A stretch of DNA of 64,000 bases from the sequence record LC788705.1; one strand, given 5' to 3'. Of the stretch, positions 1 to 54,085 are shown piece after piece. The notes under the pieces were generated by a model, which was not told where the DNA came from, made no database searches, and saw only the letters and a program-made list of their open reading frames with translations. The position numbers and the translations under genes are program-made. Positions within the stretch are counted from its first letter, which is position 1. The number at the start of each line of letters is the position of its first letter. This DNA comes from Escherichia coli phage NG_A1.

Positions 1-684
1 GATAATAGCGGTAATGATATTCCTGATATTAGTAATAATGTCCTTCCTCCTAGAGACTTTAAGTATACCCCTACTCCTGGCGGTTTAGTAGGCTCTATAG
101 GTAAAAATGGTGAGTTATCCTGGCTTCCGAGTCTAACCAATAATGTAGTTTATTACTCTATTGTACATTCAGGCCATGCCGAACCTTACATAGTACAACA
201 GTTAGAGACCAACCCTAACGAACGTATGATCCAAGAAATAATTGGAGAACCAGCAGGTCTGGCTATATTTGAGATAAGGGCAGTAGATATTAATGGTAGA
301 AGAAGTTCCCCGGTGACTCTGTCTATAGAACTTAACTCTGCTAAAAACCTTAGTGTAGTATCCAATTTTAGGGTAATTAATACTGCTTCCGGAGATGTAA
401 CTGAGTTTGTTGGCCCAGATGTGAAACTAGCCTGGGATAGAATACCTGAAGAAGATATAATAGAGAGTATATTTTATACCCTTGAAATACACGATTCACA
501 AAATAGGATGTTAAGAAGTGTACGTATTGAAAATCAGTACACTTATGACTATTTATTAACGTATAATAAGGCAGACTTCGCTCTCCAGAACAGCGGTGCT
601 CTAGGTATAAATAGAAAATTATATTTTCGTATTAGGGCTGAAGGGGATGATGGAGAACAGTCTGTGGAGTGGGCATCCATTTAA
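1..684 (+). CDS. Tail baseplate/hub-like protein, C-terminal fragment with fibronectin-III-like domain (5' end outside window)
   Basis: Frame 1 open from base 1 to TAA 682-684; beta-sandwich FN3-like signature (LAWDRIPEED...YFRIRAEGDDGEQSVEW); TAATG coupling to next tail gene. Confidence 0.5.
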   Translation, partial: DNSGNDIPDISNNVLPPRDFKYTPTPGGLVGSIGKNGELSWLPSLTNNVVYYSIVHSGHAEPYIVQQLETNPNERMIQEIIGEPAGLAIFEIRAVDINGRRSSPVTLSIELNSAKNLSVVSNFRVINTASGDVTEFVGPDVKLAWDRIPEEDIIESIFYTLEIHDSQNRMLRSVRIENQYTYDYLLTYNKADFALQNSGALGINRKLYFRIRAEGDDGEQSVEWASI

Positions 685-2741
685 TGATTTCAAATAATGC
701 ACCAGCCAAAATGGTCTTAAATAGTATAATGACTGGATATACTTTGGCTTATGTCCAGCACTCCATCTATACTGATTATGATGTTATTGGTAGATCTTTT
801 TGGTTAAAAATAGGAGAAAGTATAGATAGACGTGATTACACCGGTATAGATACTTTCTTCGTAATGATTAATAATCTAACCCCCTCTACCTCCTATGAGA
901 TTCAGGGGGCTTTCTATGACTCAATTATTGACTCAGAGCTTTTAAATGCAAAAATTGGTATCAACCTCTCTAATGAAACTAACTTTAGAACAAAGGAAAA
1001 GCCAATAATTGTTGCAGCAAGATCTGAATCAGAACCCGTCGACGTAGGTGTTGGTGCTCCAATAGTTGTTGTAGATACTACTGGTGAAGCTAGTTACTGC
1101 ACTATTGAATTAAAAAGTACTGCATCAGAAGATAGTGAATGGGTTAAGTATTATATAGGTGCGCTGGGACCTACTATCAAATTTGGTGGTGTTCCTGTTG
1201 GTGACTATAAGATCAGAATATCTGGTCAAGTTACGATGCCAGATGGTGTTACAGTTGACTCATCTGGTTATTATGAATATCCTAGCGTTTTCACTGTAGC
1301 TTATAATTTCGTACCCCCTACTGCACCTACTAACATTGCCTTTAAAGCTGCACGAATTGCAGATGGTAAGGAACGATATGATGTTAGAATAGAATGGGAC
1401 TGGGAACGTGGTGCTGGTGCTAATGTCCGTGAATTTCTGGTTACTTATATAAACTCTGAAGAATATGCCAAGACTGGCTGGGCTAAAGCTCAAAAGATAA
1501 ACGTTGGAGCTGCTAGAGCTGCAACGATTATATCATTCCCATGGAAAGTTGAGCATACTTTTAAGGTATCATCAATTGCCTGGGGACCAAATAAGCAAGA
1601 TATAACAGAATCAGCTCCTGCAACATTTATATTGAATGAAGATACTCCTCTAGACAACAGTTTTGTCAATGAGACGGGTATTGATGTTAATTATGCCTTT
1701 ATTAAGGGCAGCATGAAAGATGGAGAAATCTGGAGACAGACATTCTTAATCGACGCAGCTACTGGTGCTATTAACATTGGTCTGCTAGATGAAGAAGGAA
1801 AAGCACCTATTTCTTTTGACCCTATAAACCGTGTTGTTAACGTTGATGGTAAAGTAATTACTAGAGATATTAATGCTGCGAACTTTATCATGACTAACTT
1901 ATCAGGTAAGGATAATCCAGCAATTTACACTCAAGGTAAATCTTGGGGGGATAATAATTCAGGTATTTGGATGGGTATGGATAATACCTCTGCCAAAGCT
2001 AAACTAGACATTGGTAATGCTACACAATGGATACGTTATGATGGTACTACTTTGCGTATCTCTAGTGGTGTAGTAATTGGAACACCAAATGGTGACGTAG
2101 ATATTGAAACTGGTTTACAAGGTAAACAGACAGTATTTGTTTATAAGTTAGCAACATCTCTACCTGCTAAACCACTAGAACAAGATTATCCGCCTCCTGG
2201 TTGGTCAAAAACTCCACCTAACCGTACAGATATGACACAGAATATCTATGCCACTACAGGTACGCTTGATCCCGTTACTAACAAACTTCTTGAAGGTACT
2301 AGCTGGTCTGATGTAGTTCAGTGGAGTGGTACTGAGGGTACTATAGGACATGATGGACAACGTGGTCCTGGAATGTACTCCTTAGGTATTCCTGGTCTTG
2401 GGGGCTGGGATGATGGGCAGGCTAATGCCTTCTTCCAGAATAACTTTGGTAGTCCTCCTGTTAGATATGATGTATTAACCGAATTTAATAGTAATGCTCC
2501 ACAATCAGCATTTACAAGGCAATGGAATGGGTCTGGTTGGGTTAGCCCTGCAATGGTTCTCCACGGAAACATGATTGTTAATGGGACGGTGACGGCAGAT
2601 AAAATTGTAGCAGGAAATGCTTTCTTATCTCAGATCGGTGTTAACATCATTTATGATAGAAATGCTGCGTTATCCGGGAATCCTGAGGCATACTACAAGA
2701 TGAAGATAGACCTAAATAGTGGGTATATCCATATAAGGTAA
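684..2741 (+). CDS. Tail tip/central fibre protein with FN3-like domain (T5 pb4-like)
   Basis: About 685 aa from ATG 684 overlapping upstream stop (TAATG); FN3-like segment (RYDVRIEWDWERGAGANVREFLVTY); Gly/Thr/Asn-rich beta-rich C-terminus; sits in tail gene block. Confidence 0.5.
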   Translation: MISNNAPAKMVLNSIMTGYTLAYVQHSIYTDYDVIGRSFWLKIGESIDRRDYTGIDTFFVMINNLTPSTSYEIQGAFYDSIIDSELLNAKIGINLSNETNFRTKEKPIIVAARSESEPVDVGVGAPIVVVDTTGEASYCTIELKSTASEDSEWVKYYIGALGPTIKFGGVPVGDYKIRISGQVTMPDGVTVDSSGYYEYPSVFTVAYNFVPPTAPTNIAFKAARIADGKERYDVRIEWDWERGAGANVREFLVTYINSEEYAKTGWAKAQKINVGAARAATIISFPWKVEHTFKVSSIAWGPNKQDITESAPATFILNEDTPLDNSFVNETGIDVNYAFIKGSMKDGEIWRQTFLIDAATGAINIGLLDEEGKAPISFDPINRVVNVDGKVITRDINAANFIMTNLSGKDNPAIYTQGKSWGDNNSGIWMGMDNTSAKAKLDIGNATQWIRYDGTTLRISSGVVIGTPNGDVDIETGLQGKQTVFVYKLATSLPAKPLEQDYPPPGWSKTPPNRTDMTQNIYATTGTLDPVTNKLLEGTSWSDVVQWSGTEGTIGHDGQRGPGMYSLGIPGLGGWDDGQANAFFQNNFGSPPVRYDVLTEFNSNAPQSAFTRQWNGSGWVSPAMVLHGNMIVNGTVTADKIVAGNAFLSQIGVNIIYDRNAALSGNPEAYYKMKIDLNSGYIHIR

Positions 2742-2747
2742 TAAATA

Positions 2748-3083
2748 ATGAGTACTGAAAATAGAGTTATAGACTTAGTGATAGATGAGAAAGTACCTTA
2801 TGGTCTAATGATGCAATTCTTAGATGTTGATGATAGTACTTATCCACCTACAAATACCCCTGTTAACTTAACGGGGTATTCTCTAAGGGGTACTATAAAG
2901 GCCGGGCTTGATGAGAATGCGGAAACTTTGGCATCTTTTACTACTAAAATTATTGATGCTGCTCAAGGTGCCATAGCTATAAGTTTACCTGTAGAGGCGG
3001 TAGATAATATTGGTGAAAAAGCTACCAAAGAGAGAGAGATAAGTATAACCCTCGCCAACGTTTTGCAGGATACTATGATATAA
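2748..3083 (+). CDS. Small tail-associated protein (possible collar/Ig-like protein)
   Basis: 111-aa ORF tightly packed between tail-tip and fibre genes; no catalytic motif. Confidence 0.4.
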
Positions 3084-3171
3084 TTATGACACGAGATGTC
3101 ATAGGATCAGCTATTAGCTCTTTTCGTATAATGGAGGGTAAAGTATTTATCAGTGATGGGGTAACTAGATA

Positions 3172-5226
3172 ATGGCAATAACTACTAAGATTATTGTACA
3201 ACAAATATTAAATATTGATGATACTAAAGCTACTGCTAGTAAATTTCCTAGATACACAGTAACTCTTGGAAATTCTATTAGCTCTATTACTGCTAATGAG
3301 TTAGTATCCTCTATAGAGGCCGCTGCTAAATCTGCTGCGGCTGCAAAAGATTCTGAAATAGCTGCTAAAACCTCAGAACTTAATGCTAAGAATTCGGAGC
3401 AGGAAGCTGCTATTTCTGCCGGGGCTTCAGAAGCTTCTGCTACTCAGTCTGCTACATCTGCTACTCAATCTGCTGCATCAGCTGATAAATCTGCAGAATC
3501 AGCCGCAGCAGCTAAAGTATCCGAGACTAATGCGAAGGCTAGTGAAACTAATGCTGCAGGATCTGCAACTTCTGCCAACCAATCTGTAACTACTATTCAA
3601 GGGCTTAAATCAGATGTTGAACAATTAAAATCTGATACCCAGGCCATTAAAAATAGTGCTGTAACAGAGACAGCAGCTTTAAAAGCAGATGTTGAGCAAT
3701 TAAAAACAGATACACAAGGTATTAAGGATAGCACGGTATCTGAGACAACAACTTTAAAAAACCAAGCTGCAACTTCTGCAACTAGTGCTGCTAATTCTGC
3801 TACTGAAGCAGGAAAACAAGCTACTAGTGCTGCCAATAGTGCTAATACTGCTAAAACTGAAGCCGACCGTTCAAAAACTGAGGCTGATAGATCAGAAGCT
3901 GCTGCTAATTCTACCCCCGACATTCAACCTCTTCCAGATGTATGGATACCGTTTAATGATTCTCTAGATATGATCACCGGCTTTGCACCAGGCTATAAAA
4001 AAATAACAGTTGGTGATGAGGAAATAACACTGCCTAGCGACAAGATTGTTAGCTTTACTCGTGCATCAACTGCGACCTATATCAATAAGTCCGGTATATT
4101 GACCATTGCTGAAGTTGACGAACCGCGATTTGAACGTGAAGGTTTGCTGATTGAAGGACAAAGAACTAACCTGCTAATCAATTCAACTGATCCGACTAAA
4201 TGGAACAAGTCATCAAATATGATCTTAGATAGATCAGGTGTAGATGATTTCGGATTCCAGTACGCAAAATTTACATTAAAACCAGAAATGGTAGGGCAAA
4301 CTTCAGCGATTAACATAGTAACCGTTTCCGGCAGCAGAGGTTTTGATGTAACAGGAAATGAAAAGTATGTAACCATATCATGCAGGGCGCAAAGTGGGAC
4401 TCCAAATTTAAGATGCCGATTACGATTTGAAAACTACGATGGATCTGCTTATACATTTTTGGGTGATGCTTACGTAAATCTGACAGATTTATCAATTGAA
4501 AAAACTGGCGGCGCTGCAAATCGTATTACTGCAAGGGCTGTTAAAGATGAAGCAAGCAAATGGATTTTCTTTGAGGCAACAATTAAAGCACTTGATACAG
4601 AAAATATGATCGGTGCAATGGTGCATTATGCACCAGCAAAAGGGGGAGGTACTGGTGTAGATGATTATATTTATATTGCGACCCCTCAAGTTGAAGGTGG
4701 GGCATGTGCTTCATCCTTTATTATTACAGAAGCAACTCCAGTGACAAGGGCTAGTGATATGGTTACAATGCCAATCAAAAACAACCTTTACAATTTGCCG
4801 TTTACAGTACTTGTGGAAGCTAATAAAAACTGGAGTATAACGCCAAATGCTGCGCCTCGTGTTTTCGATACTAGAGGTCATCAATCTGGTGCGGCAATTA
4901 TTCTTGCTTTCGGATCTGCCGAAGGCGATAATGATGGATTCCCTTATTGCGATATAGGTAAATCAAACAGAAGGGTTTACGAGAATGCAAAACTAAAAAA
5001 GATGATTATGGGAATGAGAGTAAAGAGTGATTACAATAATTGCTGTGTAAGTAATGCCAGAATATCAAGCGAAACAAAAACGGAATGGAGATACATACAA
5101 TCAACGGCTACTATAAGGATTGGAGGACAAACAAATACTGGAGAACGACATTTATTTGGCCATATCCGAAACTTTAGAATCTGGCATAAGGAACTAACTG
5201 ATAGACAAATGAAGGAGTATGTATGA
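3172..5226 (+). CDS. L-shaped tail fibre protein (LtfA-like) with Ala/Ser/Thr-rich repetitive shaft
   Basis: 684 aa; N-terminal low-complexity region with tandem ~20-aa repeats (SDVEQLKSDTQAIKNSAVTETAALKADVEQLKTDTQGIK); beta-rich C-terminal domain; context. Confidence 0.6.
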   Translation: MAITTKIIVQQILNIDDTKATASKFPRYTVTLGNSISSITANELVSSIEAAAKSAAAAKDSEIAAKTSELNAKNSEQEAAISAGASEASATQSATSATQSAASADKSAESAAAAKVSETNAKASETNAAGSATSANQSVTTIQGLKSDVEQLKSDTQAIKNSAVTETAALKADVEQLKTDTQGIKDSTVSETTTLKNQAATSATSAANSATEAGKQATSAANSANTAKTEADRSKTEADRSEAAANSTPDIQPLPDVWIPFNDSLDMITGFAPGYKKITVGDEEITLPSDKIVSFTRASTATYINKSGILTIAEVDEPRFEREGLLIEGQRTNLLINSTDPTKWNKSSNMILDRSGVDDFGFQYAKFTLKPEMVGQTSAINIVTVSGSRGFDVTGNEKYVTISCRAQSGTPNLRCRLRFENYDGSAYTFLGDAYVNLTDLSIEKTGGAANRITARAVKDEASKWIFFEATIKALDTENMIGAMVHYAPAKGGGTGVDDYIYIATPQVEGGACASSFIITEATPVTRASDMVTMPIKNNLYNLPFTVLVEANKNWSITPNAAPRVFDTRGHQSGAAIILAFGSAEGDNDGFPYCDIGKSNRRVYENAKLKKMIMGMRVKSDYNNCCVSNARISSETKTEWRYIQSTATIRIGGQTNTGERHLFGHIRNFRIWHKELTDRQMKEYV

Positions 5227-5501
5227 GAGATATAATCCTAAAGTTCACAGATAAATCAACATATAAAGATTTTCTCATTCAAATAGGGTGGGATACTAAT
5301 GAAACTTTGCAAAACCAAATAATGCTTGATGAAATTGGCTATACTTATACTGAAATCTCTCCGCTAGGCGATGAGGAGCCTAGATGCATCCGTAATGAAG
5401 GGTATTATGTTAATGTAAGGATTCTTGATGAATCCTTTACTTACGAATACTTCGAGCCTTTTATAGTTCAGCTAGAACAGCCTCTTAGAGTATGGGCATA
5501 A
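5223..5501 (+). CDS. Hypothetical protein between tail fibre genes
   Basis: 92-aa ORF, start overlaps upstream stop; no recognisable motif. Confidence 0.4.
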   Translation: MRDIILKFTDKSTYKDFLIQIGWDTNETLQNQIMLDEIGYTYTEISPLGDEEPRCIRNEGYYVNVRILDESFTYEYFEPFIVQLEQPLRVWA

Positions 5502-5510
5502 GGTTTTATA

Positions 5511-6122
5511 ATGGTAACTAAAACAGTAATTCCTACGGATATTACAAAACTTAAAAATGAGTCACTTAACAAGAATAATAACTTAAGTGACTTAGCAGAC
5601 CGTGCAGCAGCATGGCTAAATGTGCGTCCTATTGGGTCCACCCCTCTTGCGGGGGACCCTGTTGGGGACTACGATGCTGCAACCAAACGTTGGGTAGAGA
5701 ATAAGATTAACACTGGTACAGTCGGCCCCACTATGAATGGTGTTATGAACTACGGCGTTGGTGATTTCCACCTTCGAGATAGTCGTGCATATATTCAACC
5801 ATACGAAGTCGTTTCTGACGGACAGCTTCTTAATAGGGCTGACTGGCCTGAACTTTGGGCGTATGCACAAATGGTTGGGGCTATAGATGATTCAGTTTGG
5901 TTAGGAGATAAATTCCAGCGCGGTAAGTACTCATCAGGTAATGGAACAACAACCTTTCGTGTTCCAGATAAGAATGGGGTGCAGGAGGGATCAATACGCG
6001 CTCTTTATGGCCGTGGAGATGGTGGGAATAGTGGTGCAAATGGGCAACTGTTCGAATCCGCTGCGCCTAATATTACAGGTTTTTCACCACATATGCCTCT
6101 CAAACCTATGCCCAGGCATTAG
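5511..6122 (+). CDS. Tail fibre protein, N-terminal part with phage tail-collar domain (frame continues in -1 frame)
   Basis: Collar-domain signature (SDGQLLNRADWPELWAY...TTFRVPDKNGVQEGSIRALYGRGDGG); stops at TAG 6120-6122 while the -1 frame is open from 6071 to 7240. Confidence 0.55.
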   Translation: MVTKTVIPTDITKLKNESLNKNNNLSDLADRAAAWLNVRPIGSTPLAGDPVGDYDAATKRWVENKINTGTVGPTMNGVMNYGVGDFHLRDSRAYIQPYEVVSDGQLLNRADWPELWAYAQMVGAIDDSVWLGDKFQRGKYSSGNGTTTFRVPDKNGVQEGSIRALYGRGDGGNSGANGQLFESAAPNITGFSPHMPLKPMPRH

Positions 6123-6334
6123 GACATACAGGTGGTTGCTTTAGTGCAAACAATAATGCGTTTCCTGACGGAAGAGGTGACGGAATCGCTCCAGGGTCTA
6201 CAGCTCTTGCTGGACGTTATAATACCTGCGACTTCAATGCCTCAATATCAAGTCCGATTTACGGGGCATCAACAGATGAGATTCTTACACGAAACTTTGT
6301 CGGCGTCTGGGTAATCCGTGCTTCTGGTGGGTTC

Positions 6335-7240
6335 GTGGCAGCAAATACATCATGGAGTGTTATTAACGCTGATAAAACAACCCCCGATTCAGGTGTTGTT
6401 GTTTCTGGTGGTAGTGTTAAATCTGAATATAAATCTCCCAGTGCAAGTGTAACAGCGGAACTAAAATCAAGTAAAGTAATTAATGGTGCATGGGGTGTTA
6501 GCTTAACTATAACAGATGATAGAGGGATCCCTGTAAGCATTAAGTATGACAGTAATGGTCAGTTTTCAACATCTCATAGGCCATCTGGAGTCGGTACTGG
6601 GAGTTCCTATACTCATTGCGCTTATCGCGCGCCAGACTGGTGGAATAACACAGCATATAGTGCCTTCGTACCAATTCTTGGAGGTGGTAGCGGTAATTCA
6701 CTAAAGAACTATAGATCTTTTGCTTGTTTTGGACAAATATCTTATCCTGATTCTAGTAATAGTTATCCTAGAGCTGCAATTGCTCAAGTAAGGGATTGGG
6801 CACTACCAGATGGTGAACAAGGTAACGGCAAGAGTATTACCGTGTTTACGTTTATTGATAATTCATTTGACCTTCAATATGGGTACAACGATGGTTCGCT
6901 AAACTATATTTTTTCAAAATCTCCAATTTGTGATGAAAGATTAAAGAAAAATATTGAATCCATTGATACTAATATTGCAATAAGTAATATTAAGCAGATG
7001 TCATATAAATCATACATCTATAAAAATGACGAGAATGAACAGGTGCGCCGTGGTTTTATAGCTCAGGATTTACAGAAAATAGATCCCCAATATGTACGGG
7101 AATATGGAGATCCTGGAAGAGAGAAAACGTTGGCCATTGATGAAAACGTTATGTTGCTTGATTCAGTTGCTGCGGTTAAGTGGCTTATTAATAAAGTTGA
7201 GGAGTTGCAAGAAGAAATAAATGTATTGAAAGCTAAGTAA
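6335..7240 (+). CDS. Tail fibre C-terminal part with intramolecular chaperone / autoproteolytic (S74-like) domain; reading frame open from 6071
   Basis: C-terminus DERLKKNIESI...GFIAQDLQKIDPQYV matches the intramolecular chaperone domain of phage fibres; coding-like conserved sequence upstream of first ATG. Confidence 0.55.
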   Translation: MAANTSWSVINADKTTPDSGVVVSGGSVKSEYKSPSASVTAELKSSKVINGAWGVSLTITDDRGIPVSIKYDSNGQFSTSHRPSGVGTGSSYTHCAYRAPDWWNNTAYSAFVPILGGGSGNSLKNYRSFACFGQISYPDSSNSYPRAAIAQVRDWALPDGEQGNGKSITVFTFIDNSFDLQYGYNDGSLNYIFSKSPICDERLKKNIESIDTNIAISNIKQMSYKSYIYKNDENEQVRRGFIAQDLQKIDPQYVREYGDPGREKTLAIDENVMLLDSVAAVKWLINKVEELQEEINVLKAK

Positions 7241-25184: not shown

Positions 25185-25857
25185 GTTTCAGGGCAGCCTT
25201 AGCAGCTTCGTTAATCAACGTAATAATTTCTTCACGAGTCCACTTATATCCTAGAGATTTTACGTCTACCCCTAACTTTTCCAGATGTTTAACAGAAGCC
25301 AGCTCGTAATTCATATAATGAACGTTCTGTTGTTTGCCTTCTGATAGAAGCCATACACGGTAACAACCAACAGGGTTATCCATTGCTTTTTTGATTTCAC
25401 CGATACACTGGTATCCAGGAACCCAAACAAGCTCACCAACTGCAAATTCTTCTGCTACAGCATCATCAGGAATAATTGGAGGATTCAATGGATCTACAAT
25501 ATCATTCAAACGAAGCAGAGCACCATATCGTTCCAGAACAGATTTAACCATTGCTACAGAGCGGTAATTACGATCGGCAATCTCTTCGAAAGAATCACCA
25601 GATAAATACTGCTCAATAACGTTAGCTAACTCAATGCCTTCAATGAGTGTGCCACGTTTCTTTTTCTTCATTTCGGCAACTTGAATCTGGCGGTCTTGCC
25701 ATTCTTCAATCATCCTTTCCATAGTTGTGTTGGATGATACGCCAAGCATTTCACATGCTGCTTTCTTAGTACCACCGTTCTCTAGATGCTCTATAACTTT
25801 TTTAAAGACTTCATCAGGGATTTCATGGATATGTTTCTTTCTGCGAGAACCAGCCAT
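25153..25857 (-). CDS. Putative HTH DNA-binding/regulatory protein
   Basis: 234 aa; N-terminal HTH (GGTKKAACEMLGVSSNTTMERM) as in small-terminase/transposase-type HTH domains. Confidence 0.5.
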   Translation of the reverse strand: MAGSRRKKHIHEIPDEVFKKVIEHLENGGTKKAACEMLGVSSNTTMERMIEEWQDRQIQVAEMKKKKRGTLIEGIELANVIEQYLSGDSFEEIADRNYRSVAMVKSVLERYGALLRLNDIVDPLNPPIIPDDAVAEEFAVGELVWVPGYQCIGEIKKAMDNPVGCYRVWLLSEGKQQNVHYMNYELASVKHLEKLGVDVKSLGYKWTREEIITLINEAAKAALKLDKEKGKRRE

Positions 25858-25888
25858 ATTTAAACTCCTCTCTCAAATTTATGAATCT

Positions 25889-25917
25889 ATTATACAGAAA
25901 AATTTTCCTGAAAGCAA
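25889..25917 (-). promoter_or_regulatory. Early promoter
   Basis: Minus-strand TTGCTT-N17-TATAAT plus conserved AAATTTGAGAGAGG leader. Confidence 0.65.
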
Positions 25918-29386: not shown

Positions 29387-29885
29387 AACAATACTCCTGT
29401 GTTGGAAATAAAATAAGTTTTCTTTAGGACTATTCAGAAAGAATAGAACAACTGTTACTGTCAATTTCTCAACAAATTAATCGCAAATACTGAAGTGGGG
29501 TGGCAACTTCCACTTTCACGCTGCGCTGCTGCTTTGCTATATCGCACAAATCCTTGAGGATGGCCGCTAAGCCAGATTTGCTCACCTAATGCTTCATATA
29601 CTAGCTCATACTAGATGCAATATAACTTACAGAATCACGTCTCGGAGTTTTTCACTCCTCCCATCTCACTTCACAACCACCTCATACTAGGTTGCTTCGA
29701 GGCCTTACCAGGGTTCCTATGGGACGCAGATCGCTAAGTATTCTATTAACTATTTGTTTAAAAACTAACACGTAACAGTTAAAACAACCCTTAATGGGGC
29801 AGCCTAACTGTTCCGTATCGCGGATTGTAAACAAGAAAAATTAGCAAAATCAATTTTTACTAATGTCTCTCAATTCAATATAAAT

Positions 29886-29914
29886 ATTATATCAAGATTT
29901 TGGGCATCCTGCAA
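29886..29914 (-). promoter_or_regulatory. Promoter driving the long non-coding leader upstream of the origin-binding-protein gene
   Basis: Minus-strand TTGCAG-N17-TATAAT; about 480 nt of ORF-free transcript would precede the gene. Confidence 0.55.
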
Positions 29915-30005
29915 GTAAAATTTTCCGGATGGTGCTATCATTGGTCTTGAGTACGGATAAAACCGAGCCAAAATGACTCGGTAATCAGAGTTCAGCTAAT
30001 AAAAA

Positions 30006-33162: not shown

Positions 33163-33195
33163 TAAAAGCCAGGTCGACTAGCAACCCGGCTGATT
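33163..33195 (-). terminator. Terminator downstream of nrdD
   Basis: Minus-strand hairpin (AGCCGG...CCTGGCT) followed by TTTTATTTT. Confidence 0.55.
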
Positions 33196-33198
33196 AGC

Positions 33199-35046
33199 TT
33201 ATTTAGCTCGAATATCCTGATGTTTCACCCTGCCCATCACCTCGTGCTGTTTGCCAGGGTTAAATGGACGAGCACCCGGATTTCCAAGATACCCACAAAC
33301 TCGACGAGTTACTTCAAGAGTTTCGGGGTCATGATTACCACAGATAGGGCACTTAAATCCATCTTCGGATGCTATTGTTTCACCTAAGAATCCACATTTA
33401 CCACAAGAATCCACTGGAGTATTAATACCGAAGTAATGAACTTTACTAGCAGCATAATTAATAACCCATTCCAGTGCATCTGGGAATCGTTTCATATCTG
33501 GTAGTTCTACATAGGAAATGCACCCACCAGAAGCAATCGGAGTAAAATTAGATTCATAATCAAATTTCACATTGGGAGCAACTTTGCGTTCTACATCAAG
33601 GTGGTGCGAGTTAGTGTAGTATCCTTTAGACAGAATATCTTCATGCTCCGGGAAATATTCACGGTCTAGACGACAAAAACGATCACATAGGGATTCTGAT
33701 GGTGTAGCATACAGGCTATAACCTAACTTAGTTTCTTCCTTCTTCTGATCGACTCTATCCCGCATGTACTGCAATACACGCTGAACAAATTTGATGCAGG
33801 TCTCGGACATTGTGTCCACATCTTTGCCAAACATGAACTGTAGCATTTCATGGCAACCAATATACCCTAGAGATACAGAAGCACGGTTATAGAAATGATC
33901 AAATACATATTCATCAGGCTCCAAGCGTAACCCAAAGGCTCCTGACATATAGAGGATGGGTGCAGCTTTAGCTTGGATGTATTTTAAGCGATCAACTCTC
34001 CACTCCAATGCTTTTAACGCTGTATCCACACGTAGCTCAAGCAAATCAAAGAATAGATCAATATTTCCTTCAGCTTCGATAGCAATTCTAGGCAAGTTTA
34101 CAGAAACAACACCTAAGTTATTACGACCGGCAGTTTCACCATCTTCTGTAGCAGCTAGGAATGAACGGCAACCCATAGAAACTTTATAGTCTCCAGTAAC
34201 TTCCACAACCTTATCATAGCTGATATAATCTGGATACATACGTTCAGACGTACATTTCATAGCTAACTTCTTGATGTCATAATTAACATCTCCTGGTTTC
34301 ATATTTACGCCATCACGAAGTACAAATACCAGTTTCGGGAAGATAGCTGTACGTTTATTGATACCTAAACCATCCATGCGTACTTTCAGTATTGCTTTCT
34401 GTACTAGACGTGCTTCCCAAGAAGTTCCTAGACCAAAACCAAAGGTAATAAATGGACTCTGACCGTTAGAGTTGAACATCGTATTGATTTCATACTCTAG
34501 ACCCTGACAGGCATCATAGACTTCCTTTTCAGTCATCTCCGTAGCCATTACGGATGCTTTGGCTTCATCCTTAGTCCAACGTTTTGCAAACGCATGATTT
34601 TTGTCATATGATTTACGAACATAAGGGGCTAATACTTCATCAAGGCGGTCTACAGAAGTACCACCATACTGATGGGAGCTAACCTGAGTGATAATCTGAG
34701 CAGTAATAGCCGCCGCAGTAGTGATAGAGTTTGGAGTGCTAATTTCAGCATTACCAACCTTCATACCATTCTTCAACATATCTTCCAAAGCTACCAGACA
34801 ACAGTTAGTCATGCCTAATGCAGCATAATCAGCATCATGGAAATGAATATCCCCAATCATATGAGCATTTCGAATCTGGATTGGCATTTCTTCTAGAATT
34901 AGATACTTACTCAATTCACCTGCAAGCATATCCCTTTGTGTAGGGAAACGTTCTGAGGGTTTATTAGCATTATTAAACAGCAGCTCTTCATCTGCTGACC
35001 CTTCGATAATCTCTTTGCAGTTTCTAATCAATTCATCTTTGTTCAT
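33199..35046 (-). CDS. nrdD: Anaerobic ribonucleoside-triphosphate reductase (class III)
   Basis: 615 aa; C-terminal glycyl-radical motif RVCGYLG and Zn site (CGKCG...CPICG). Confidence 0.9.
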   Translation of the reverse strand: MNKDELIRNCKEIIEGSADEELLFNNANKPSERFPTQRDMLAGELSKYLILEEMPIQIRNAHMIGDIHFHDADYAALGMTNCCLVALEDMLKNGMKVGNAEISTPNSITTAAAITAQIITQVSSHQYGGTSVDRLDEVLAPYVRKSYDKNHAFAKRWTKDEAKASVMATEMTEKEVYDACQGLEYEINTMFNSNGQSPFITFGFGLGTSWEARLVQKAILKVRMDGLGINKRTAIFPKLVFVLRDGVNMKPGDVNYDIKKLAMKCTSERMYPDYISYDKVVEVTGDYKVSMGCRSFLAATEDGETAGRNNLGVVSVNLPRIAIEAEGNIDLFFDLLELRVDTALKALEWRVDRLKYIQAKAAPILYMSGAFGLRLEPDEYVFDHFYNRASVSLGYIGCHEMLQFMFGKDVDTMSETCIKFVQRVLQYMRDRVDQKKEETKLGYSLYATPSESLCDRFCRLDREYFPEHEDILSKGYYTNSHHLDVERKVAPNVKFDYESNFTPIASGGCISYVELPDMKRFPDALEWVINYAASKVHYFGINTPVDSCGKCGFLGETIASEDGFKCPICGNHDPETLEVTRRVCGYLGNPGARPFNPGKQHEVMGRVKHQDIRAK

Positions 35047-35704
35047 TAATTATTTCCTCAATAAACCTTGCTACTACTTCTGGCTCAATACTAAAAAATT
35101 CTGTAGCACCATCAAAATCTTTATATTGACAATTATATTCCTTAAACTGTAAATGGGTTTCTCTCTCAATATGCATAGCTTTTGATCTATCTGAAAAGCT
35201 ATACTCCTTAAATATTTTTAAATCATGTATGTTAGAGGAAGTTTTAATATCTCTGAGTCTATCTTTAGTTCTGCTAGACACACCTATTTTGGTTCCCACA
35301 TTACTTACTAAAATATATACGTTAGTAGGATAATTATCCTTCTCTAATAAACATATAGGACAACCAGAATTATGATTTCTAACACTATCAAGTGTAGACT
35401 CCCATTTATGATCATTCTCACAGCTGAACATGATTTTACTCTTGGAATTGATGTATTTACCTTCCATCTTTATTCCACGGGCAGCTAAAGATTCATTTAC
35501 TTCTTTAAGATCTAAAGTACGGCTAGCACAATAAGGGCAACCTCTACCACCTTTTACGTTATCTACTCTAGCTTCCCAACTATGCCCATTAGAGCACTTA
35601 AATATAGCCTTGGATTTAGCTGATATATACGTGCTTAGCATAACTATCCCTCTAGGAGCAAGTGCTAAGTTCACATCTTCTGTAGTTATTTTCTTTCTTA
35701 CCAT
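35033..35704 (-). CDS. Putative endonuclease with tandem zinc ribbons and GIY-YIG/T5orf172-like C-terminal domain
   Basis: Two CxxGHxW...CPxC zinc ribbons; C-terminal YILVSN...KIGVSSR...R pattern resembling GIY-YIG-related domain. Confidence 0.45.
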   Translation of the reverse strand: MVRKKITTEDVNLALAPRGIVMLSTYISAKSKAIFKCSNGHSWEARVDNVKGGRGCPYCASRTLDLKEVNESLAARGIKMEGKYINSKSKIMFSCENDHKWESTLDSVRNHNSGCPICLLEKDNYPTNVYILVSNVGTKIGVSSRTKDRLRDIKTSSNIHDLKIFKEYSFSDRSKAMHIERETHLQFKEYNCQYKDFDGATEFFSIEPEVVARFIEEIINEQR

Positions 35705-35720
35705 TAAATTCTCCTTAATT

Positions 35721-35751
35721 CACATATTATACATAATTCCACCCCATACGT
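35721..35751 (-). promoter_or_regulatory. Leftward promoter of divergent control region
   Basis: Minus-strand TTGACG-N17-TATAAT at the edge of the AT-rich 35705-36031 spacer. Confidence 0.5.
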
Positions 35752-35926
35752 CAACTACATTTTTCTAATACTATTTGACTTTTGATTTTTATCAATTTTT
35801 ATTGATGCTATACAGCATAATATCTTTACATATAAATAAATGATTATCTAGTATCATATTTCTACCTTTATAAGCAAGTAAATTTTTTATTTAAAAGCAA
35901 TATCATAGGTTTATTTAAAATTATAC

Positions 35927-35955
35927 TTGCTTTTTGCTGTAAACCTTGTTATAAT
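35927..35955 (+). promoter_or_regulatory. Rightward early promoter (phoH operon)
   Basis: TTGCTT-N17-TATAAT with A/T-rich upstream element. Confidence 0.65.
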
Positions 35956-36031
35956 ATATTTGTAAGTTGATAAACAAGATCTCTTTGTTGATCCTCTGTT
36001 AGAAGCGAAGTACACTATAGGAGTGTTATTT

Positions 36032-36784
36032 ATGGGAAAAGCACGTCAAAAAAGAGAGAACCGTAATGGTTCAAGAAAGCGTGGCAACAAATATGAGAAT
36101 AACGTAATTCAGGCTGATTTTTCTAATGATTACGCTAACCCAGTTGCTAAATCCCTAGTAGGTAAAAACCGCGAGCAAAAATCATATATCAATATGATCA
36201 AGAACAACACAGTGACTGTGGGTATTGGTGAGCCGGGTACTGGTAAAACCTTTATCCCGTCTGTTCTTGCAGCTCAGGAACTCGTAGACATTCACTCAGA
36301 TATTGAGCAAGTGATTCTCGTACGTCCTAATGAACCTCTAGGTAAGTCTCTTGGTATGCTTCCTGGTGATCTAGCAGAAAAGCTAGAGCCTTGGTTGGAG
36401 CCAATAGCTGATGGTATGAAATGGGCCATCGGTGATCATGCCTATAAGGGATATGTCGAACGCCAGAAAATTAAATTTTTGGCTATAGAACATGCTCGTG
36501 GCAGAACTTTCAACAACTCCTATGTAATTGTCGATGAAGCTCAGAATATTTCCGTTGAGGCAATGGTTTGTCTCCTAACTCGTGTAGGACAAGACTGCCG
36601 TTTAATTATCTGCGGAGATATAGCTCAGAAAGACATTAAAGGTGACTCAGGTCTAGCACTTCTTATGGAAGTTTATGAGAAATATGAAAATGCTCCATTC
36701 TCAATGATCGAATTGATTGATAACGTTCGTTCTGCTGAGTCTAAAGCATTCTACGATATTTTTAAAGACATGGGGAAGGTGTAA
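36032..36784 (+). CDS. phoH: PhoH-like ATPase
   Basis: Walker A GEPGTGKTF, Walker B VIVDEAQN; TAGGAG RBS 8 nt upstream of ATG 36032. Confidence 0.85.
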   Translation: MGKARQKRENRNGSRKRGNKYENNVIQADFSNDYANPVAKSLVGKNREQKSYINMIKNNTVTVGIGEPGTGKTFIPSVLAAQELVDIHSDIEQVILVRPNEPLGKSLGMLPGDLAEKLEPWLEPIADGMKWAIGDHAYKGYVERQKIKFLAIEHARGRTFNNSYVIVDEAQNISVEAMVCLLTRVGQDCRLIICGDIAQKDIKGDSGLALLMEVYEKYENAPFSMIELIDNVRSAESKAFYDIFKDMGKV

Positions 36785-43675: not shown

Positions 43676-43954
43676 ATGAGAATTTATAACTCAAATTCAT
43701 TAGGATTTAAACCGTTGAGAAAACGTGCACAATCACCTCGTCAAATAAGAAAGGCTAATATTGGTGAGCCAGAAACACGTCTTCCACCTCCTCCGGAACA
43801 GCGTTTAGTTTATCTGGATGAAGAATTAGCTGAACGCGAAAGAAAAGCTCAAGAAGAGATTGAGCGTAAGAAAATGTGTACTGCTCCAGCGTATAATAAA
43901 GGAGCATATCAATATGTTTCCGATGCAGAACAAGCCAAGATGGTTGGTAGATAA
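43676..43954 (+). CDS. Hypothetical protein
   Basis: 92-aa ORF with GAGGAGG RBS. Confidence 0.5.
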   Translation: MRIYNSNSLGFKPLRKRAQSPRQIRKANIGEPETRLPPPPEQRLVYLDEELAERERKAQEEIERKKMCTAPAYNKGAYQYVSDAEQAKMVGR

Positions 43955-43970
43955 TTTTTAAAAAATTCAT

Positions 43971-43999
43971 TTGCTAAACGCTTCAAATTCTCGTATAAT
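43971..43999 (+). promoter_or_regulatory. Early promoter
   Basis: TTGCTA-N17-TATAAT. Confidence 0.65.
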
Positions 44000-44037
44000 A
44001 TACTTCATAAATTGATAAACAAAAAGGAAAATAAATA

Positions 44038-48720: not shown

Positions 48721-49732
48721 ATATTCATAAATTAGAGAACAGCGAGCCGATTACGCTGAACTTGTCTTAATGTAAGATGCGTCGAGCACTAAGATTCGTT
48801 GAATAGAGTCGGTGGGTTAGTTGTAAAACTAGTACACAGGGGGCGGCAATCCCGGTTAGTGGCTAGAACGTGTAAAATGAGGCGTCTGAAACCTCTCCCC
48901 TAAACTCTTCTCTAATTTATAAATAGTGGGGTGTGGAAATCACTTATGTAGTAACACTGCCGTCCTAGTATAATTGGTATTATCAAGCCGTAACTGGTGG
49001 AAGATGTAGGTTCGAATCCTACGGTCGGTAAGAACTGGATAACTGATGCTTTTAATGTAAAAGCTTCCGAGGTTAGTTGCGCACTGCCTAAACCACGCGG
49101 TAGTTGGTTCCAGACTAACCAACCAGTCTGCTGAATAGTTTTATTACGATTTAACTATGTCCAGGCTAAAGAAGAACTTTAGAAGGTATTCTAGGATAGT
49201 GAAGTTCTTTCTCCATATCGGAGTAGTTTTTCAAGCTATCCACAAAGTGGGAAATGCTGACATGAGAGATGTCACTAATGGTGCACAATAGCACAGGTAA
49301 TTCGCGATAACTCCTGTTGAGTAGCAGCAAAAGGTGGGAAGTCATGACCCCAAGCCTAACCGAGTCCTCAATATACCGCAGGACATAACTACTAAGTCAC
49401 CCTGACTTAAACTGGAAAATAATAGACGTTACTGTATTTTGTCTTGAAATACTTAATGAGTGAGACTTATGACTCTCCCGGTATCGTCTGTATTTTTAAG
49501 AGTTTTTACGAGAGTTCTTAAAAATACTTAAACGGGGTGTAGTCTAAGGGAGAGGCAGGAGTCTTCTAAATTCCTTTATGCAGGTTCGAATCCCTTGTCA
49601 CGCACCAAATTTGATGGTCAGAGTAAATTAAACCTACTATCTCGGTTGAGCTGTTTTAATGGGTTCGAATCCCAGCGAGGCGTAACTGCCTGGTGTGATA
49701 GAGGCATCATTCCACTAACATTGGAAAAACTA

Positions 49733-53379: not shown

Positions 53380-53727
53380 ATGAGCCGTACTTATCGTAAA
53401 CAATCTGGTGATCAGTGGTGGAAGTCTAAAGAACAATTCTCTCAAGAATATTCTTTCATCAAAGAAAATGGATACTGGATTCGTGTTATTTATGCCAAAT
53501 CTTGGGACGACATCAAAAAAGAAATGAAGGAAGCAACCATTCGTAATGAGAAAAAGGATGGTTATAACTGGAATTCTATTAGCAAGAATGTTAAGTGGCA
53601 TTCTAATAAAATGGTTCGTCAAGGAAATCGTCAAGAACTCCACCGCGTGATGAAAGATCCAGAAAATTACGACTATAATCGCGATCATGACATGCGTAAG
53701 CGTGGATTATGGTGGTGCTATGACTAA
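53380..53727 (+). CDS. Hypothetical protein
   Basis: 115-aa ORF with GGAGG RBS. Confidence 0.5.
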   Translation: MSRTYRKQSGDQWWKSKEQFSQEYSFIKENGYWIRVIYAKSWDDIKKEMKEATIRNEKKDGYNWNSISKNVKWHSNKMVRQGNRQELHRVMKDPENYDYNRDHDMRKRGLWWCYD

Positions 53728-53773: not shown

Positions 53774-53803
53774 ATTTATATAAATTGATGAGAGAGGTTT
53801 GAA

Positions 53804-54085
53804 ATGAAAACTCGTCTAGACTGTGCTATTCACGTTGTCGAGCATAGTGTTGTTGGAACCTGTATGTCTTACCATGAAGCAGGTCGTTTAATTAAAGAAC
53901 GTGTGGCAGATGTGTGTGGATTGAAGATTACTGCTGAGGAATCTGATGATCTTTTAGGTCAAGCACTGGAGAAAACCGAAATGTTCCTCTGCGATTCTTG
54001 TTCTTGGTGGTGTGAAGCTCACGAACGTTCTTTCAATGATTATGATGTATGTCGTGATTGTAGTGGGGAGGATGAAGATGAATAA
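53804..54085 (+). CDS. Small Cys-rich zinc-ribbon protein with acidic C-terminus
   Basis: CDSCSWWC...CRDC cluster and C-terminal GEDEDE. Confidence 0.5.
   Translation: MKTRLDCAIHVVEHSVVGTCMSYHEAGRLIKERVADVCGLKITAEESDDLLGQALEKTEMFLCDSCSWWCEAHERSFNDYDVCRDCSGEDEDE

What the first reader, a model, noticed from the sequence alone, without database searches (positions are those of the whole stretch)
35705..36031. AT-rich divergent control region separating the leftward replication block from the rightward early block
About 330 bp with no ORF, promoters firing in both directions, the palindrome ATCAAT-TTTT-ATTGAT (about 35785-35805) and repeated TTGAT(A/C) motifs. All genes to the left are on the minus strand and all to the right on the plus strand, so this is the transcriptional divergence point and an alternative origin candidate.
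Basis: partly seen in the sequence, partly recalled or inferred. Interest (0 to 1): 0.4.

Follow-up and report, generated by a model that had tools for sequence, protein, structure and literature searches.

The report
T5-like phage divergent promoter region
This AT-rich gap is the known back-to-back promoter region between the anaerobic ribonucleotide reductase gene and the phoH/aerobic reductase genes of a T5-like phage; nothing marks it as a replication origin, but the repeated TTGAT motifs include a perfect binding site for the host oxygen sensor FNR in front of the anaerobic enzyme gene.

Summary
The window is a T5-like phage (Tequintavirus). Positions 35705-36031 are a real 327-bp gap with no gene, and the most AT-rich stretch of the window. 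It is homologous to the phoH-nrdD gap of phage T5, where three promoters are already annotated. Comparison with about 35 relatives supports a rightward T5-type early promoter for phoH/nrdAB (-35 35927-32, -10 35950-55). It also supports a leftward consensus promoter (-35 35754-49, -10 35731-26) for a homing-endonuclease gene plus nrdD. A third, leftward, promoter-like element lies in a conserved block (35842-35878). The TTGAT motifs are explained otherwise: two form TTGAT-TTTT-ATCAA (35782-35795), the only perfect FNR-box consensus in 64 kb. This dyad sits exactly 27 nt upstream of the nrdD-unit -35 hexamer. Tequintavirus, Epseptimavirus and Sugarlandvirus lineages keep a dyad at that offset although the flanks differ. 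The other TTGAT motifs belong to the phoH promoter's downstream box and leader. No iterons or DnaA boxes are present, and GC skew follows gene orientation, so an origin is unsupported. FNR binding is inferred, not shown.

The parts
35705..36031 (.). Whole non-coding control region between the homing-endonuclease/nrdD unit (leftward) and phoH (rightward)
   Evidence: ORF lists. Homologous to T5 NC_005859 53591-53960. Lowest GC of the window.
35719..35754 (-). P_left: consensus sigma-70 promoter. -35 TTGACG 35754-35749, 17-nt spacer, -10 TATAAT 35731-35726, predicted start about 35719. It drives the endonuclease gene plus nrdD.
   Evidence: 11 of 12 match to consensus. TTGACA/G-17-TATAAT is kept in 23 of 24 aligned haplotypes (AKFV33 has TATACT); AGTCAA in My1. 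Hexamer columns are 0.99 conserved against 0.70 for the spacer. Equals the annotated T5 nrdD promoter 53884-53958. Transcription start is inferred.
35702..35716 (-). Shine-Dalgarno AAGGAG (35716-35711) and ATG (35704-35702) of the T5orf172/DUF4379 putative homing endonuclease
   Evidence: Sequence; Pfam hits.
35782..35795 (.). TTGAT-TTTT-ATCAA: perfect FNR-box consensus dyad. It lies 27 nt upstream of the P_left -35 hexamer, so its centre is about -69.5.
   Evidence: Only exact match in 64 kb. 0 of 300 shuffles of the gap reach 10/10, and no other tested transcription-factor consensus beats chance. A dyad at the identical 27-nt offset is seen in seven lineage types including Klebsiella phage IME260, despite unrelated flanks. 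Consensus from PMC3688515 and PMC10425943. Binding is not tested.
35791..35806 (.). Its left arm is the right half of the FNR-type dyad. Its right arm lies in the decayed upstream region of promoter P2.
   Evidence: Located, which also shows it is no better than chance. Among the aligned relatives it is present only in the window and NR01.
35796..35830 (+). Remnant of the second phoH-ward promoter P2. P2 is intact in T5 and most relatives but lacks a usable -35/-10 pair here.
   Evidence: Alignments. T5's annotated promoter 53776-53850 has no equivalent here. No acceptable hexamer pair was found by inspection or by the profile scan.
35842..35893 (-). Conserved block with candidate leftward promoter P3. 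A/T-rich upstream element 35893-35879, -35 TTGCTT 35878-35873, 18-nt spacer ending in TG (35857-35856), -10 TACTAG 35854-35849, predicted start about 35842.
   Evidence: The core TAAATAAATGATTATCTAGTATCATA is identical in Pectobacterium phage My1 (PhoH 67% identical) and nearly identical in Serratia phage Kamaji. The -35, TG and TAYTAG are kept while the 16 nt between them vary. The upstream half scores 24.5 bits, as high as the best promoters; the total is 15.4, rank 27 among all positions of the window on both strands. Function is inferred.
35912..35962 (+). P1: T5-type early promoter of phoH. A/T-rich upstream element, -35 TTGCTT 35927-35932, 17-nt spacer, -10 TATAAT 35950-35955, ATATT discriminator 35956-35960, predicted start about 35962.
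   Evidence: A profile trained on 24 other promoters of the window scores it 41.7 bits, the only out-of-sample hit in the training range. It is invariant in 28 close relatives and recognisable in every genus examined. It equals the annotated T5 promoter 53638-53712. The ATATT early signature is from PMC7472727.
35962..36031 (+). phoH 5' leader.
   Evidence: Nearly invariant in 28 relatives. TATAAT-N11-TTGA recurs at 8 exact sites, all co-oriented with the genes. The stem pair covaries: A-T, G-C (IME260), T-A (Kamaji). The overall fold is not better than shuffles (z = +0.8).
33167..35704 (-). Transcription unit served by P_left: endonuclease ORF 35033-35704, nrdD 33199-35046, intrinsic terminator 33191-33167
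   Evidence: Pfam. Terminator and the next promoter; T5 annotates the same terminator.
36032..36784 (+). phoH, first gene of the rightward unit, followed by nrdA and nrdB
   Evidence: Pfam.

Best explanation
The interval is the divergent early-gene control region of a T5-like phage, read by host sigma-70 RNA polymerase.

Rightward promoter. P1 is a canonical T5-type early promoter: A/T-rich upstream element, TTGCTT, 17-nt spacer, TATAAT, ATATT discriminator and a TTGA box near +7. It starts the phoH-nrdA-nrdB unit through a highly conserved 70-nt leader.

Leftward promoters. P_left is a near-consensus promoter (TTGACG-17-TATAAT). It starts a short unit made of a mobile T5orf172 endonuclease gene and nrdD (anaerobic ribonucleotide reductase), ending at a terminator just after nrdD. 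A conserved block between the two promoters carries a third, leftward, promoter-like element (P3) with an extended -10. Its -35 and upstream element lie back-to-back with those of P1. A fourth promoter (P2, phoH-ward), present in T5 and most relatives, has decayed in this lineage.

The TTGAT motifs (inferred, about 45% likely). TTGAT-TTTT-ATCAA at about -69.5 of P_left is an operator for the host oxygen sensor FNR. It would tie expression of the phage's anaerobic reductase to anaerobiosis, as FNR does for the host nrdDG operon. In lineages that keep P2, the same site overlaps P2's upstream element.

What is shown and what is inferred. Shown: sequence anatomy, homology to annotated T5 promoters, and conservation patterns. 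Inferred: transcription start points, activity of P3, and FNR binding and its effect.
For: The window is 97% identical to T5-like phages. The T5 homologue of the gap carries three annotated promoters, which map onto P1, P2 and P_left. P1 scores 41.7 bits with a profile built from 24 other promoters of the window. It matches published T5-like consensus features (PMC3326045; PMC7472727).

The P_left and P1 hexamers persist across Tequintavirus, Epseptimavirus, Sugarlandvirus, Novosibvirus and Pectobacterium phages while their spacers diverge. For P3, the -35, TG and TAYTAG are conserved around a variable spacer in 22 haplotypes.

The FNR consensus occurs once in 64 kb, in this gap. It is the only one of seven tested transcription-factor motifs that beats shuffles. 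A dyad sits at the same 27-nt offset in seven lineage types, with core conservation 0.87 against 0.71 and 0.56 for the flanks. The chance of at least 9/10 at a fixed offset is about 2e-4. The downstream unit is nrdD alone plus the endonuclease gene. E. coli nrdDG is activated from FNR sites at -64.5 and -33.5, and FNR represses nrdAB (PMC10425943, PMC3688515). Serratia phage Kamaji lacks nrdD and lacks the dyad.
Against: No transcription start-site data were found for this locus, so all starts are predicted.

P_left is already a consensus promoter, unlike typical activator-dependent promoters. A centre at -69.5 is 2 bp away from the classical class I position (-71.5) and 5 bp from the host nrdDG site (-64.5).

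The dyad is degenerate in T5 itself (7/10). It is only 8/10 in the commonest lineage, which alone is not significant (P = 0.45). It is deleted in the lineages carrying the 267/301-aa endonuclease, and absent from Proteus phage PM135. In Pectobacterium phages a different dyad, TGTTA-N8-TAACA, occupies the same centre. That pattern could point to a different regulator.

The P3 -10 ends in G rather than the usual T, and its downstream half scores poorly (-7.6 bits).
Confidence: 0.75

Rival explanations
1. The interval is, or contains, an origin of replication. Strong divergent promoters would open the most AT-rich duplex of the region, and the TTGAT repeats or the palindrome would bind an initiator such as the phage D2 UL9-like helicase. 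This would be a transcription-activated origin like those of T7 and T4.
For: It has the lowest GC of the 64-kb window. The cumulative GC-skew minimum lies here. It lies at about 44% of the T5 map, and old electron microscopy reported internal bidirectional origins (Bourguignon 1976, cited in PMC3632103). A D2 'origin-binding' helicase is encoded 6 kb away. T5 origins have never been mapped to sequence, to my knowledge.
Against: There are no iterons, tandem repeats or DnaA boxes; the best DnaA-like match has 2 mismatches. The palindrome and the left half of the gap are not conserved among relatives that share the replication genes at over 90% identity. Coding-strand GC skew is the same in all three gene blocks (+0.115, +0.118, +0.092) and flips equally at the convergent boundary at 7.3 kb. 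Skew is therefore explained by gene orientation. Recombitron editing of T5 showed one strand preference across the genome, read as unidirectional replication from one end (PMC10055335). Stacked promoters with A/T-rich upstream elements explain the AT-richness.
Confidence: 0.08
2. The TTGA-N6-TCAA dyad is real but is not an FNR site. It would bind a phage-encoded regulator or another host factor that sets the balance between the leftward and rightward promoters, independent of oxygen.
For: The centre position is kept, but the sequence is replaced by TGTTA-N8-TAACA in Pectobacterium phages My1 and DU_PP_V, as expected for a co-evolving phage regulator. P_left needs no activator by sequence. In P2-bearing lineages the dyad lies about -52.5 from P2, a position better suited to occlusion than to activation.
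Against: The sequence is the exact FNR consensus here and in NBEco002 (L021). It is 9/10 in three further lineages, including the Klebsiella phage. All hosts concerned encode FNR (general knowledge). The regulated gene is the one RNR class that host FNR activates. No candidate phage regulator was identified.
Confidence: 0.2
3. The TTGAT cluster has no function of its own. It would be chance similarity in AT-rich promoter debris: -35-like TTGA words from decayed or shuffled promoters, in a mosaic segment remodelled by endonuclease-driven recombination.
For: TTGA is the start of every -35 hexamer in this promoter-dense phage. The left half of the gap is mosaic, with at least three endonuclease types and several haplotypes. 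The dyad is dispensable, being deleted in the 267/301-aa endonuclease lineages. The commonest variant is only 8/10.
Against: The dyad sits at exactly the same 27-nt offset in seven lineage types with unrelated flanking sequence, including a different genus. The chance of at least 9/10 at a fixed offset is about 2e-4. The only exact consensus in 64 kb lies in front of nrdD.
Confidence: 0.2

Closest known systems
Phage T5 phoH-nrdD intergenic promoters (NC_005859 53638-53712, 53776-53850, 53884-53958; annotation after Wang et al. 2005)
   Same: Homologous locus. P1 and its leader are almost identical. P_left has the same hexamers, spacing and position relative to the gene. The flanking genes are the same.
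   Different: The window has a T5orf172 endonuclease gene inserted between P_left and nrdD. It lacks a functional P2 and the GC-rich element that follows P2. It carries a perfect FNR-type dyad where T5 has only 7/10. P3 is not annotated in T5, and its -10 region differs there (TATTAG).
T5 early promoters of the Gentz & Bujard type (P_N25, P_H207 and others)
   Same: P1 has the family signature: AAAATT-type upstream block, TTGCTT, 17-nt spacer, TATAAT, ATATT, TTGA near +7. P1 shares TTGATAAACAA with P_H207, which is present in the window at 43994, next to an exact P_N25 at 25894.
   Different: P_left is a plain TTGACG/TATAAT consensus promoter without the ATATT discriminator. P3 has a deviant extended -10.
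E. coli nrdDG promoter, FNR-activated, sites at -64.5 and -33.5 (Roca 2008, as described in PMC10425943)
   Same: An FNR-consensus dyad lies upstream of the promoter of an anaerobic (class III) ribonucleotide reductase gene, with a distal site in the -60s to -70s.
   Different: There is a single site here (possibly two in IME260). The predicted centre is -69.5 rather than -64.5. The core promoter is consensus rather than activator-dependent. No binding or expression data exist. The site lies between anaerobic and aerobic RNR operons transcribed divergently.
Transcription-activated phage origins (T7 primary origin, T4 oriF/oriG, lambda ori; from general knowledge)
   Same: Strong promoters next to a very AT-rich stretch.
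   Different: No initiator repeats or defined unwinding element downstream of a promoter. The AT-rich core is not conserved. No replication evidence exists.

Membership tests
T5-type early sigma-70 promoter | -35 TTGCTW, 17-18 nt spacer, -10 TATAAT(A) | tested here: met
   P1: TTGCTT-17-TATAAT at 35927-35955. Consensus as in PMC3326045.
T5-type early sigma-70 promoter | A/T-rich block around -43, ATATT discriminator, A/T-rich +1 to +20 region with TTGA | tested here: met
   The profile from 24 other promoters gives 41.7 bits: 20.7 for the upstream half and 21.0 for the downstream half. ATATT signature per PMC7472727.
T5-type early sigma-70 promoter | Transcription start and early kinetics in infected cells | not testable with these tools
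   No start-site data for this locus were found in the literature searches.
Divergent (back-to-back) promoter region | Functional promoters facing both flanking units | tested here: met
   The hexamers of P_left and P1 are conserved across genera while the spacers are variable. Both are annotated in T5. This is comparative, not experimental, evidence.
FNR-regulated promoter | TTGAT-N4-ATCAA dyad | tested here: met
   10/10 at 35782-35795. Unique in the window. 0 of 300 shuffles reach it.
FNR-regulated promoter | Site centred at an activating position (about -41.5, -61.5, -71.5) or overlapping a promoter for repression | tested here: inconclusive
   The predicted centre is -69.5 from P_left (start inferred, +/-2). 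In relatives it is about -52.5 from P2.
FNR-regulated promoter | Core promoter dependent on the activator (poor -35) | tested here: not met
   P_left matches the consensus at 11 of 12 positions.
FNR-regulated promoter | Oxygen-sensitive FNR binding and fnr-dependent expression | not testable with these tools
   Needs EMSA or ChIP and reporter assays.
Replication origin | Repeated initiator-binding sites (iterons, DnaA boxes) | tested here: not met
   No tandem or direct repeat family beyond promoter-like words. No DnaA box with fewer than 2 mismatches.
Replication origin | AT-rich unwinding region | tested here: met
   Lowest GC of the window. Stacked promoter upstream elements also explain it.
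Replication origin | Strand-composition switch not explained by transcription | tested here: not met
   Coding-strand GC skew is equal in all three orientation blocks.
Replication origin | Conservation of the candidate element among relatives with the same replication machinery | tested here: not met
   Among the aligned relatives the palindrome occurs only in the window and NR01. The left half of the gap is covered by only about 20 of 440 GenBank relatives.
Replication origin | Replication initiation at the site | not testable with these tools
   Needs marker-frequency analysis or 2D gels.
Free-standing homing endonuclease gene (T5orf172 / GIY-YIG-related) | Nuclease-family domain, plus presence/absence polymorphism at a fixed site between conserved genes | tested here: met
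   Pfam T5orf172, DUF4379 and CapR. The site is empty in T5 and most relatives. Elsewhere it holds 222-223, 267 or 301 aa ORFs, or an HNH gene in phiR201, together with altered nrdD 5' ends.

The most novel reading that the evidence does not exclude
A strictly lytic phage wires its choice of ribonucleotide reductase to the host oxygen sensor. FNR bound at the dyad between the divergent nrdD and phoH-nrdAB units would boost the anaerobic reductase unit. In lineages that keep P2, it would also dampen an aerobic-reductase promoter. This would copy the host's nrdDG/nrdAB logic within a single 330-bp control region, and the dyad would be kept at a fixed position across three phage genera.
Probability: 0.35. 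Interest if true: 0.5.

Novelty: new member of a known kind. Interest (0 to 1): 0.3.

Why it matters
The FNR-type site may be new: no paper in the searched library links FNR with T5-like phages. T5-like phages are widely developed for biocontrol of gut pathogens (Salmonella, E. coli, Klebsiella) that live with little oxygen. An FNR-controlled phage nrdD would be a simple, testable case of a virulent phage reading host physiology to secure its dNTP supply. The negative result on the origin also matters, because T5 origins remain unmapped and this locus should not be annotated as one from sequence alone.

Tried and rejected
Generic sigma-70 scan: no more hits than shuffles, and it missed P1 because TTGCTT matches TTGACA at only 3 of 6 positions. 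It was replaced by a family-specific profile.

Rfam: nothing in the gap, and only tRNAs in the whole window.

Small ORFs: only 21-34 aa spurious frames.

Other transcription-factor consensus sequences: NrdR, CRP, Fur, ArcA, IHF and LexA were no better than shuffles in the window or in five relatives. A Fur-like reading of the conserved block and ArcA-like readings of the Pectobacterium and Proteus dyads were therefore dropped.

DnaA boxes, iterons and tandem repeats: none.

RNA structure of the phoH leader: not more stable than shuffles (z = +0.8), and RNAalifold found no consensus structure across genera. Only a 4-bp stem with one covarying pair remains.

Pattern scan of IMG/VR for 'P_left + 27 nt + TTGA-N6-TCAA': 20 hits, of which 4 are T5-likes already in hand. 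I did not inspect the other 16. I take them for chance matches to an AT-rich pattern, so the scan was uninformative.

The 540-bp gap upstream of the D2 helicase (29465-30005) was checked as an alternative origin candidate: no repeats of note.

The Bourguignon 1976 paper could not be retrieved.

Full report
**Identity of the window.** The 3-kb stretch around the finding is 97% identical to E. coli phages AZ23 and AZ21 and Salmonella phage SA001. It matches 444 T5-like records in total. The window is a Tequintavirus genome read in the opposite orientation to the T5 reference.

The left block (7302-35704, minus strand) encodes a flap endonuclease, an SbcC-like ATPase, an SF2 helicase, family A DNA polymerase, primase, DnaB-like helicase and NAD ligase. 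It also encodes the UL9-like D2 'origin-binding' helicase and nrdD. The right block (plus strand) encodes PhoH, NrdA, NrdB and a tRNA cluster. Genes at 226-7240 are again on the plus strand. The statement 'all genes to the left are minus' therefore holds only for the adjacent 28 kb.

**The observation.** The interval 35705-36031 is exactly the gap between the ATG of a minus-strand ORF (35033-35704) and the ATG of phoH at 36032. It has 24% GC. Only 0.08% of equally long windows in the 64 kb are as AT-rich. It contains no Rfam family and only spurious mini-ORFs.

The palindrome ATCAAT-TTTT-ATTGAT is at 35791-35806. However, 82% of dinucleotide shuffles of the region contain a palindrome of that size. 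TTGAT is moderately enriched, at 5 observed against 1.5 expected (P about 0.01).

**Homology to T5.** The gap corresponds to T5 NC_005859 53591-53960. There the deposited annotation lists two promoters towards phoH and one towards nrdD. Extracting these features shows what each one is:
- TTGCTT-17-TATAAT-ATATT, here called P1.
- TTGCTA-17-TATAAT followed by a GC-rich discriminator, here called P2.
- TTGACA-17-TATAAT, here called P_left.

The divergent-promoter reading is thus already on record for the type phage.

**Rightward promoter P1.** A simple search for T5-like promoters finds about 30 stereotyped sites in the window. All are co-oriented with the genes. They include exact copies of the classical P_N25 (25894, minus strand) and P_H207 (43994, plus strand).

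I built a two-block profile from 24 of these sites, all outside the gap. It scores P1 at 41.7 bits (-35 35927-32, -10 35950-55). That is the only out-of-sample site in the training range (34-59 bits).

P1 carries the ATATT discriminator reported for all known T5 early promoters (PMC7472727). It also carries the A/T-rich -43 and +1 regions described for AKFV33 (PMC3326045). TATAAT-N11-TTGA occurs at 8 exact sites, all in gene orientation.

P1 and the whole 70-nt phoH leader are almost invariant in 28 close relatives. P1 is recognisable in phiR201, Klebsiella phage IME260, Proteus phage PM135, Pectobacterium phages My1 and DU_PP_V, Serratia phage Kamaji and a Vibrio phage.

**Leftward promoter P_left.** TTGACG-17-TATAAT (35754-35726, minus strand) matches the consensus at 11 of 12 positions. 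It lies 15 nt upstream of the ribosome-binding site of the first leftward ORF.

Anchored alignments of 24 haplotypes give these majority fractions:

| Segment | Majority fraction |
|---|---|
| -10 hexamer | 0.99 |
| -35 hexamer | 0.99 |
| 17-nt spacer | 0.70 |

In different genera the spacer is unrelated. That is the pattern expected of a working promoter.

The unit it serves ends at an intrinsic terminator right after nrdD (33191-33167), followed by a fresh promoter. P_left therefore serves only the first ORF and nrdD.

**The first ORF is a mobile endonuclease gene.** The ORF has T5orf172, DUF4379 zinc-finger and CapR domains. T5 and most relatives have nrdD directly after the promoter. Other lineages carry 222-223, 267 or 301 aa ORFs, or an HNH gene, at the same site, together with altered nrdD 5' ends. 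This fits a free-standing homing endonuclease.

It also explains why only about 20 of 440 relatives match the left 110-130 bp of the gap, while nearly all match from 35818/35838 rightwards.

**The TTGAT cluster.** Positions 35782-35795 read TTGAT-TTTT-ATCAA. This is the canonical FNR consensus TTGATnnnnATCAA (PMC3688515 and PMC10425943). Its right arm lies in the remains of the upstream region of P2.

Evidence that the dyad is more than chance:
- It is the only exact match in the 64-kb window. Matches with one mismatch occur at chance frequency (8 found against 5.2 expected).
- None of 300 shuffles of the gap reaches 10/10. NrdR, CRP, Fur, ArcA, IHF and LexA consensus sequences do no better than shuffles.
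- The dyad begins exactly 27 nt upstream of the P_left -35 hexamer.

The same offset holds a related dyad in other lineages:

| Lineage | Dyad at the 27-nt offset |
|---|---|
| L021 (NBEco002) | TTGAT-CTTA-ATCAA |
| AKFV33 | TTGAC-TTTA-ATCAA |
| L026 | TTGAT-TTTA-GTCAA |
| L028 | TTGAT-CTGA-GTCAA |
| Commonest lineage | ATGAT-CTGA-GTCAA |
| phiR201 | TTGAC-TTTA-GTCAA |
| Klebsiella phage IME260 | TTGAT-CTGG-ATCAT |

The intervening 27 nt differ among these lineages. Core positions are more conserved (0.87) than the flanks (0.71 and 0.56). With the local base composition, the chance of at least 9/10 at a fixed offset is about 2e-4.

**Why FNR is a sensible candidate.** The downstream gene is the anaerobic ribonucleotide reductase. 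In E. coli, nrdDG is activated by FNR from sites at -64.5 and -33.5, and the distal site is necessary and sufficient (Roca 2008, as described in PMC10425943). FNR also represses nrdAB (PMC3688515). Serratia phage Kamaji has no nrdD at this locus and has no such dyad, although it keeps the rest of the architecture.

**Caveats on the FNR reading.**
- P_left is a consensus promoter that should not need an activator.
- The predicted centre (-69.5, with the start inferred) is not a textbook activating position.
- T5 itself has only 7/10.
- The lineages with the 267/301-aa endonuclease have deleted the segment.
- PM135 lacks the dyad.
- The Pectobacterium phages carry a different dyad (TGTTA-N8-TAACA) centred at the same point.

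I therefore rate FNR control at about 45%, and a functional dyad of some kind at about 60%. In relatives that keep P2, the dyad lies about -52.5 from P2, over its upstream element. Any bound protein could then also dampen that phoH-ward promoter.

**The conserved middle block.** Positions about 35831-35858 (TAAATAAATGATTATCTAGTATCATA) are identical in My1, whose PhoH is only 67% identical. They are nearly identical in Kamaji.

Read on the minus strand, the block is a T5-like promoter with an extended -10:
- an A/T-rich upstream element;
- a -35 hexamer TTGCTT (TTGACA in My1, TTGACT in DU_PP_V, TTGCTA in Kamaji);
- a variable 16 nt followed by TG;
- one variable base;
- TAYTAG, then ATAATCATTT, which resembles the usual ATATTCATAAATT.

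Its upstream half scores 24.5 bits, as high as the best promoters. The total is only 15.4 because of the deviant -10. I call it P3 and rate it about 50% likely to be active.

Its -35 and upstream element lie back-to-back with those of P1. This accounts for the 23-nt imperfect inverted repeat at 35872-35894 and 35910-35932. In relatives that keep P2, P2 and P3 face each other with starts about 25 bp apart, so they should exclude each other. In the window, P2 is decayed.

**Origin hypothesis.** The gap has no iterons, tandem repeats or DnaA boxes. The cumulative GC-skew minimum here is not independent evidence. Coding-strand GC skew is +0.115, +0.118 and +0.092 in the three orientation blocks, and it flips just as sharply at the convergent boundary at 7.3 kb.

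The putative element, the palindrome, is not conserved. Stacked promoters with A/T-rich upstream elements explain the extreme AT content.

Published data are sparse. Old electron microscopy reported multiple internal bidirectional origins (cited in PMC3632103; the original could not be retrieved). [quoted passage not shown] I leave about 8% for an origin function.

**Verdict.** The palindrome is not meaningful as such, and the origin idea has no support beyond AT-richness. The new point is the FNR-consensus dyad at a fixed position in front of the phage nrdD unit. The searched literature does not mention it, and it is directly testable.

Noticed in passing
window 25830-25900 (-) and 43950-44025 (+): Exact copies of the classical T5 promoters P_N25 (the 'T5 promoter' of expression vectors, recognised from memory) and P_H207 (annotated as such in T5). 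About 30 stereotyped T5-type promoters in the window are all co-oriented with the genes.
   Followed up: partly
window 35033-35704 (-); loci L005, L017, L019, L021, L044: The site between the nrdD promoter and nrdD is a hot spot for free-standing endonuclease genes. It holds T5orf172-type ORFs of 222-223 aa, ORFs of 267/301 aa, or an HNH gene in phiR201, and it is empty in T5. The nrdD 5' end differs with each occupant (624 aa against 608/615 aa; T5's is annotated as 574 aa).
   Followed up: partly
L007 (T5), L010-L031, L029, L033, L045, L046, L048: just downstream of promoter P2; absent from the window: A GC-rich, partly palindromic element (for example CACGCACTCGTGCACGCG, CACGCGCACGCGCG, CGCGCGCATGATGCGCG) sits in the middle of this otherwise very AT-rich gap in most T5-like genera, including Vibrio phages. 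It may be a stringent-type discriminator or 5' hairpin of P2. From memory, T5 nick sites have GCGC at their 5' ends, so it might instead be a nick site. It is lost in the window lineage.
   Followed up: no
window 35974-36000 (+); L045, L049: A small stem in the phoH leader, ACAA-GATC...GATC-(CTC)-TGTT, has one pair that covaries across genera: A-T in Tequintavirus, G-C in Klebsiella IME260 and T-A in Serratia Kamaji. The whole leader is nearly invariant in 28 relatives, yet its fold is not more stable than shuffles.
   Followed up: partly
L029 (My1) and L033 (DU_PP_V), 25-43 nt upstream of the nrdD -35 hexamer: Pectobacterium phages carry a different near-perfect dyad, TGTTAC-N6-TTAACA. It is centred at exactly the point where the FNR-type dyad is centred in the other phages.
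   Followed up: partly
L049 (Serratia phage Kamaji) 2408-2694: This Demerecviridae phage has no nrdD at the locus. Its leftward promoter is a T5-type TTGCTA promoter, and the FNR-type dyad is absent. The conserved block, P3 and P1 are all kept.
   Followed up: partly
window 35840-35851 (+): The conserved block contains a mini-ORF, ATG ATT ATC TAG. It stays open-and-closed in variants (TAA stop in T5; ACT codon in L013 and L033) but has no ribosome-binding site. This is probably coincidental.
   Followed up: no
window 29465-30005: A 540-bp stretch without a credible ORF lies upstream of the D2 UL9-like 'origin-binding' helicase gene and holds two promoter-like sites. There are no iterons or notable repeats. 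Its function is unexplained.
   Followed up: partly
L016, 870 bp between nrdD and phoH: One relative has about 500 extra bases between the nrdD start and the conserved block, and no recognisable P_left at the usual place. The content was not examined.
   Followed up: no
window 48959-49030 and 49532-49607: The two tRNA finders disagree. Rfam reports a weak tRNA at 48959-49030 that ARAGORN does not list. ARAGORN lists tRNA-Arg(tct) at 49532-49607, which Rfam does not report at gathering threshold.
   Followed up: no
L045 (IME260), 5-18 nt upstream of the nrdD -35 hexamer: A second FNR-like match, TTTAT-TATA-ATCAA (9/10), lies 22 bp promoter-proximal to the main dyad. This gives a possible tandem arrangement reminiscent of the two sites in E. 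coli nrdDG. It is AT-rich and may be chance.
   Followed up: no
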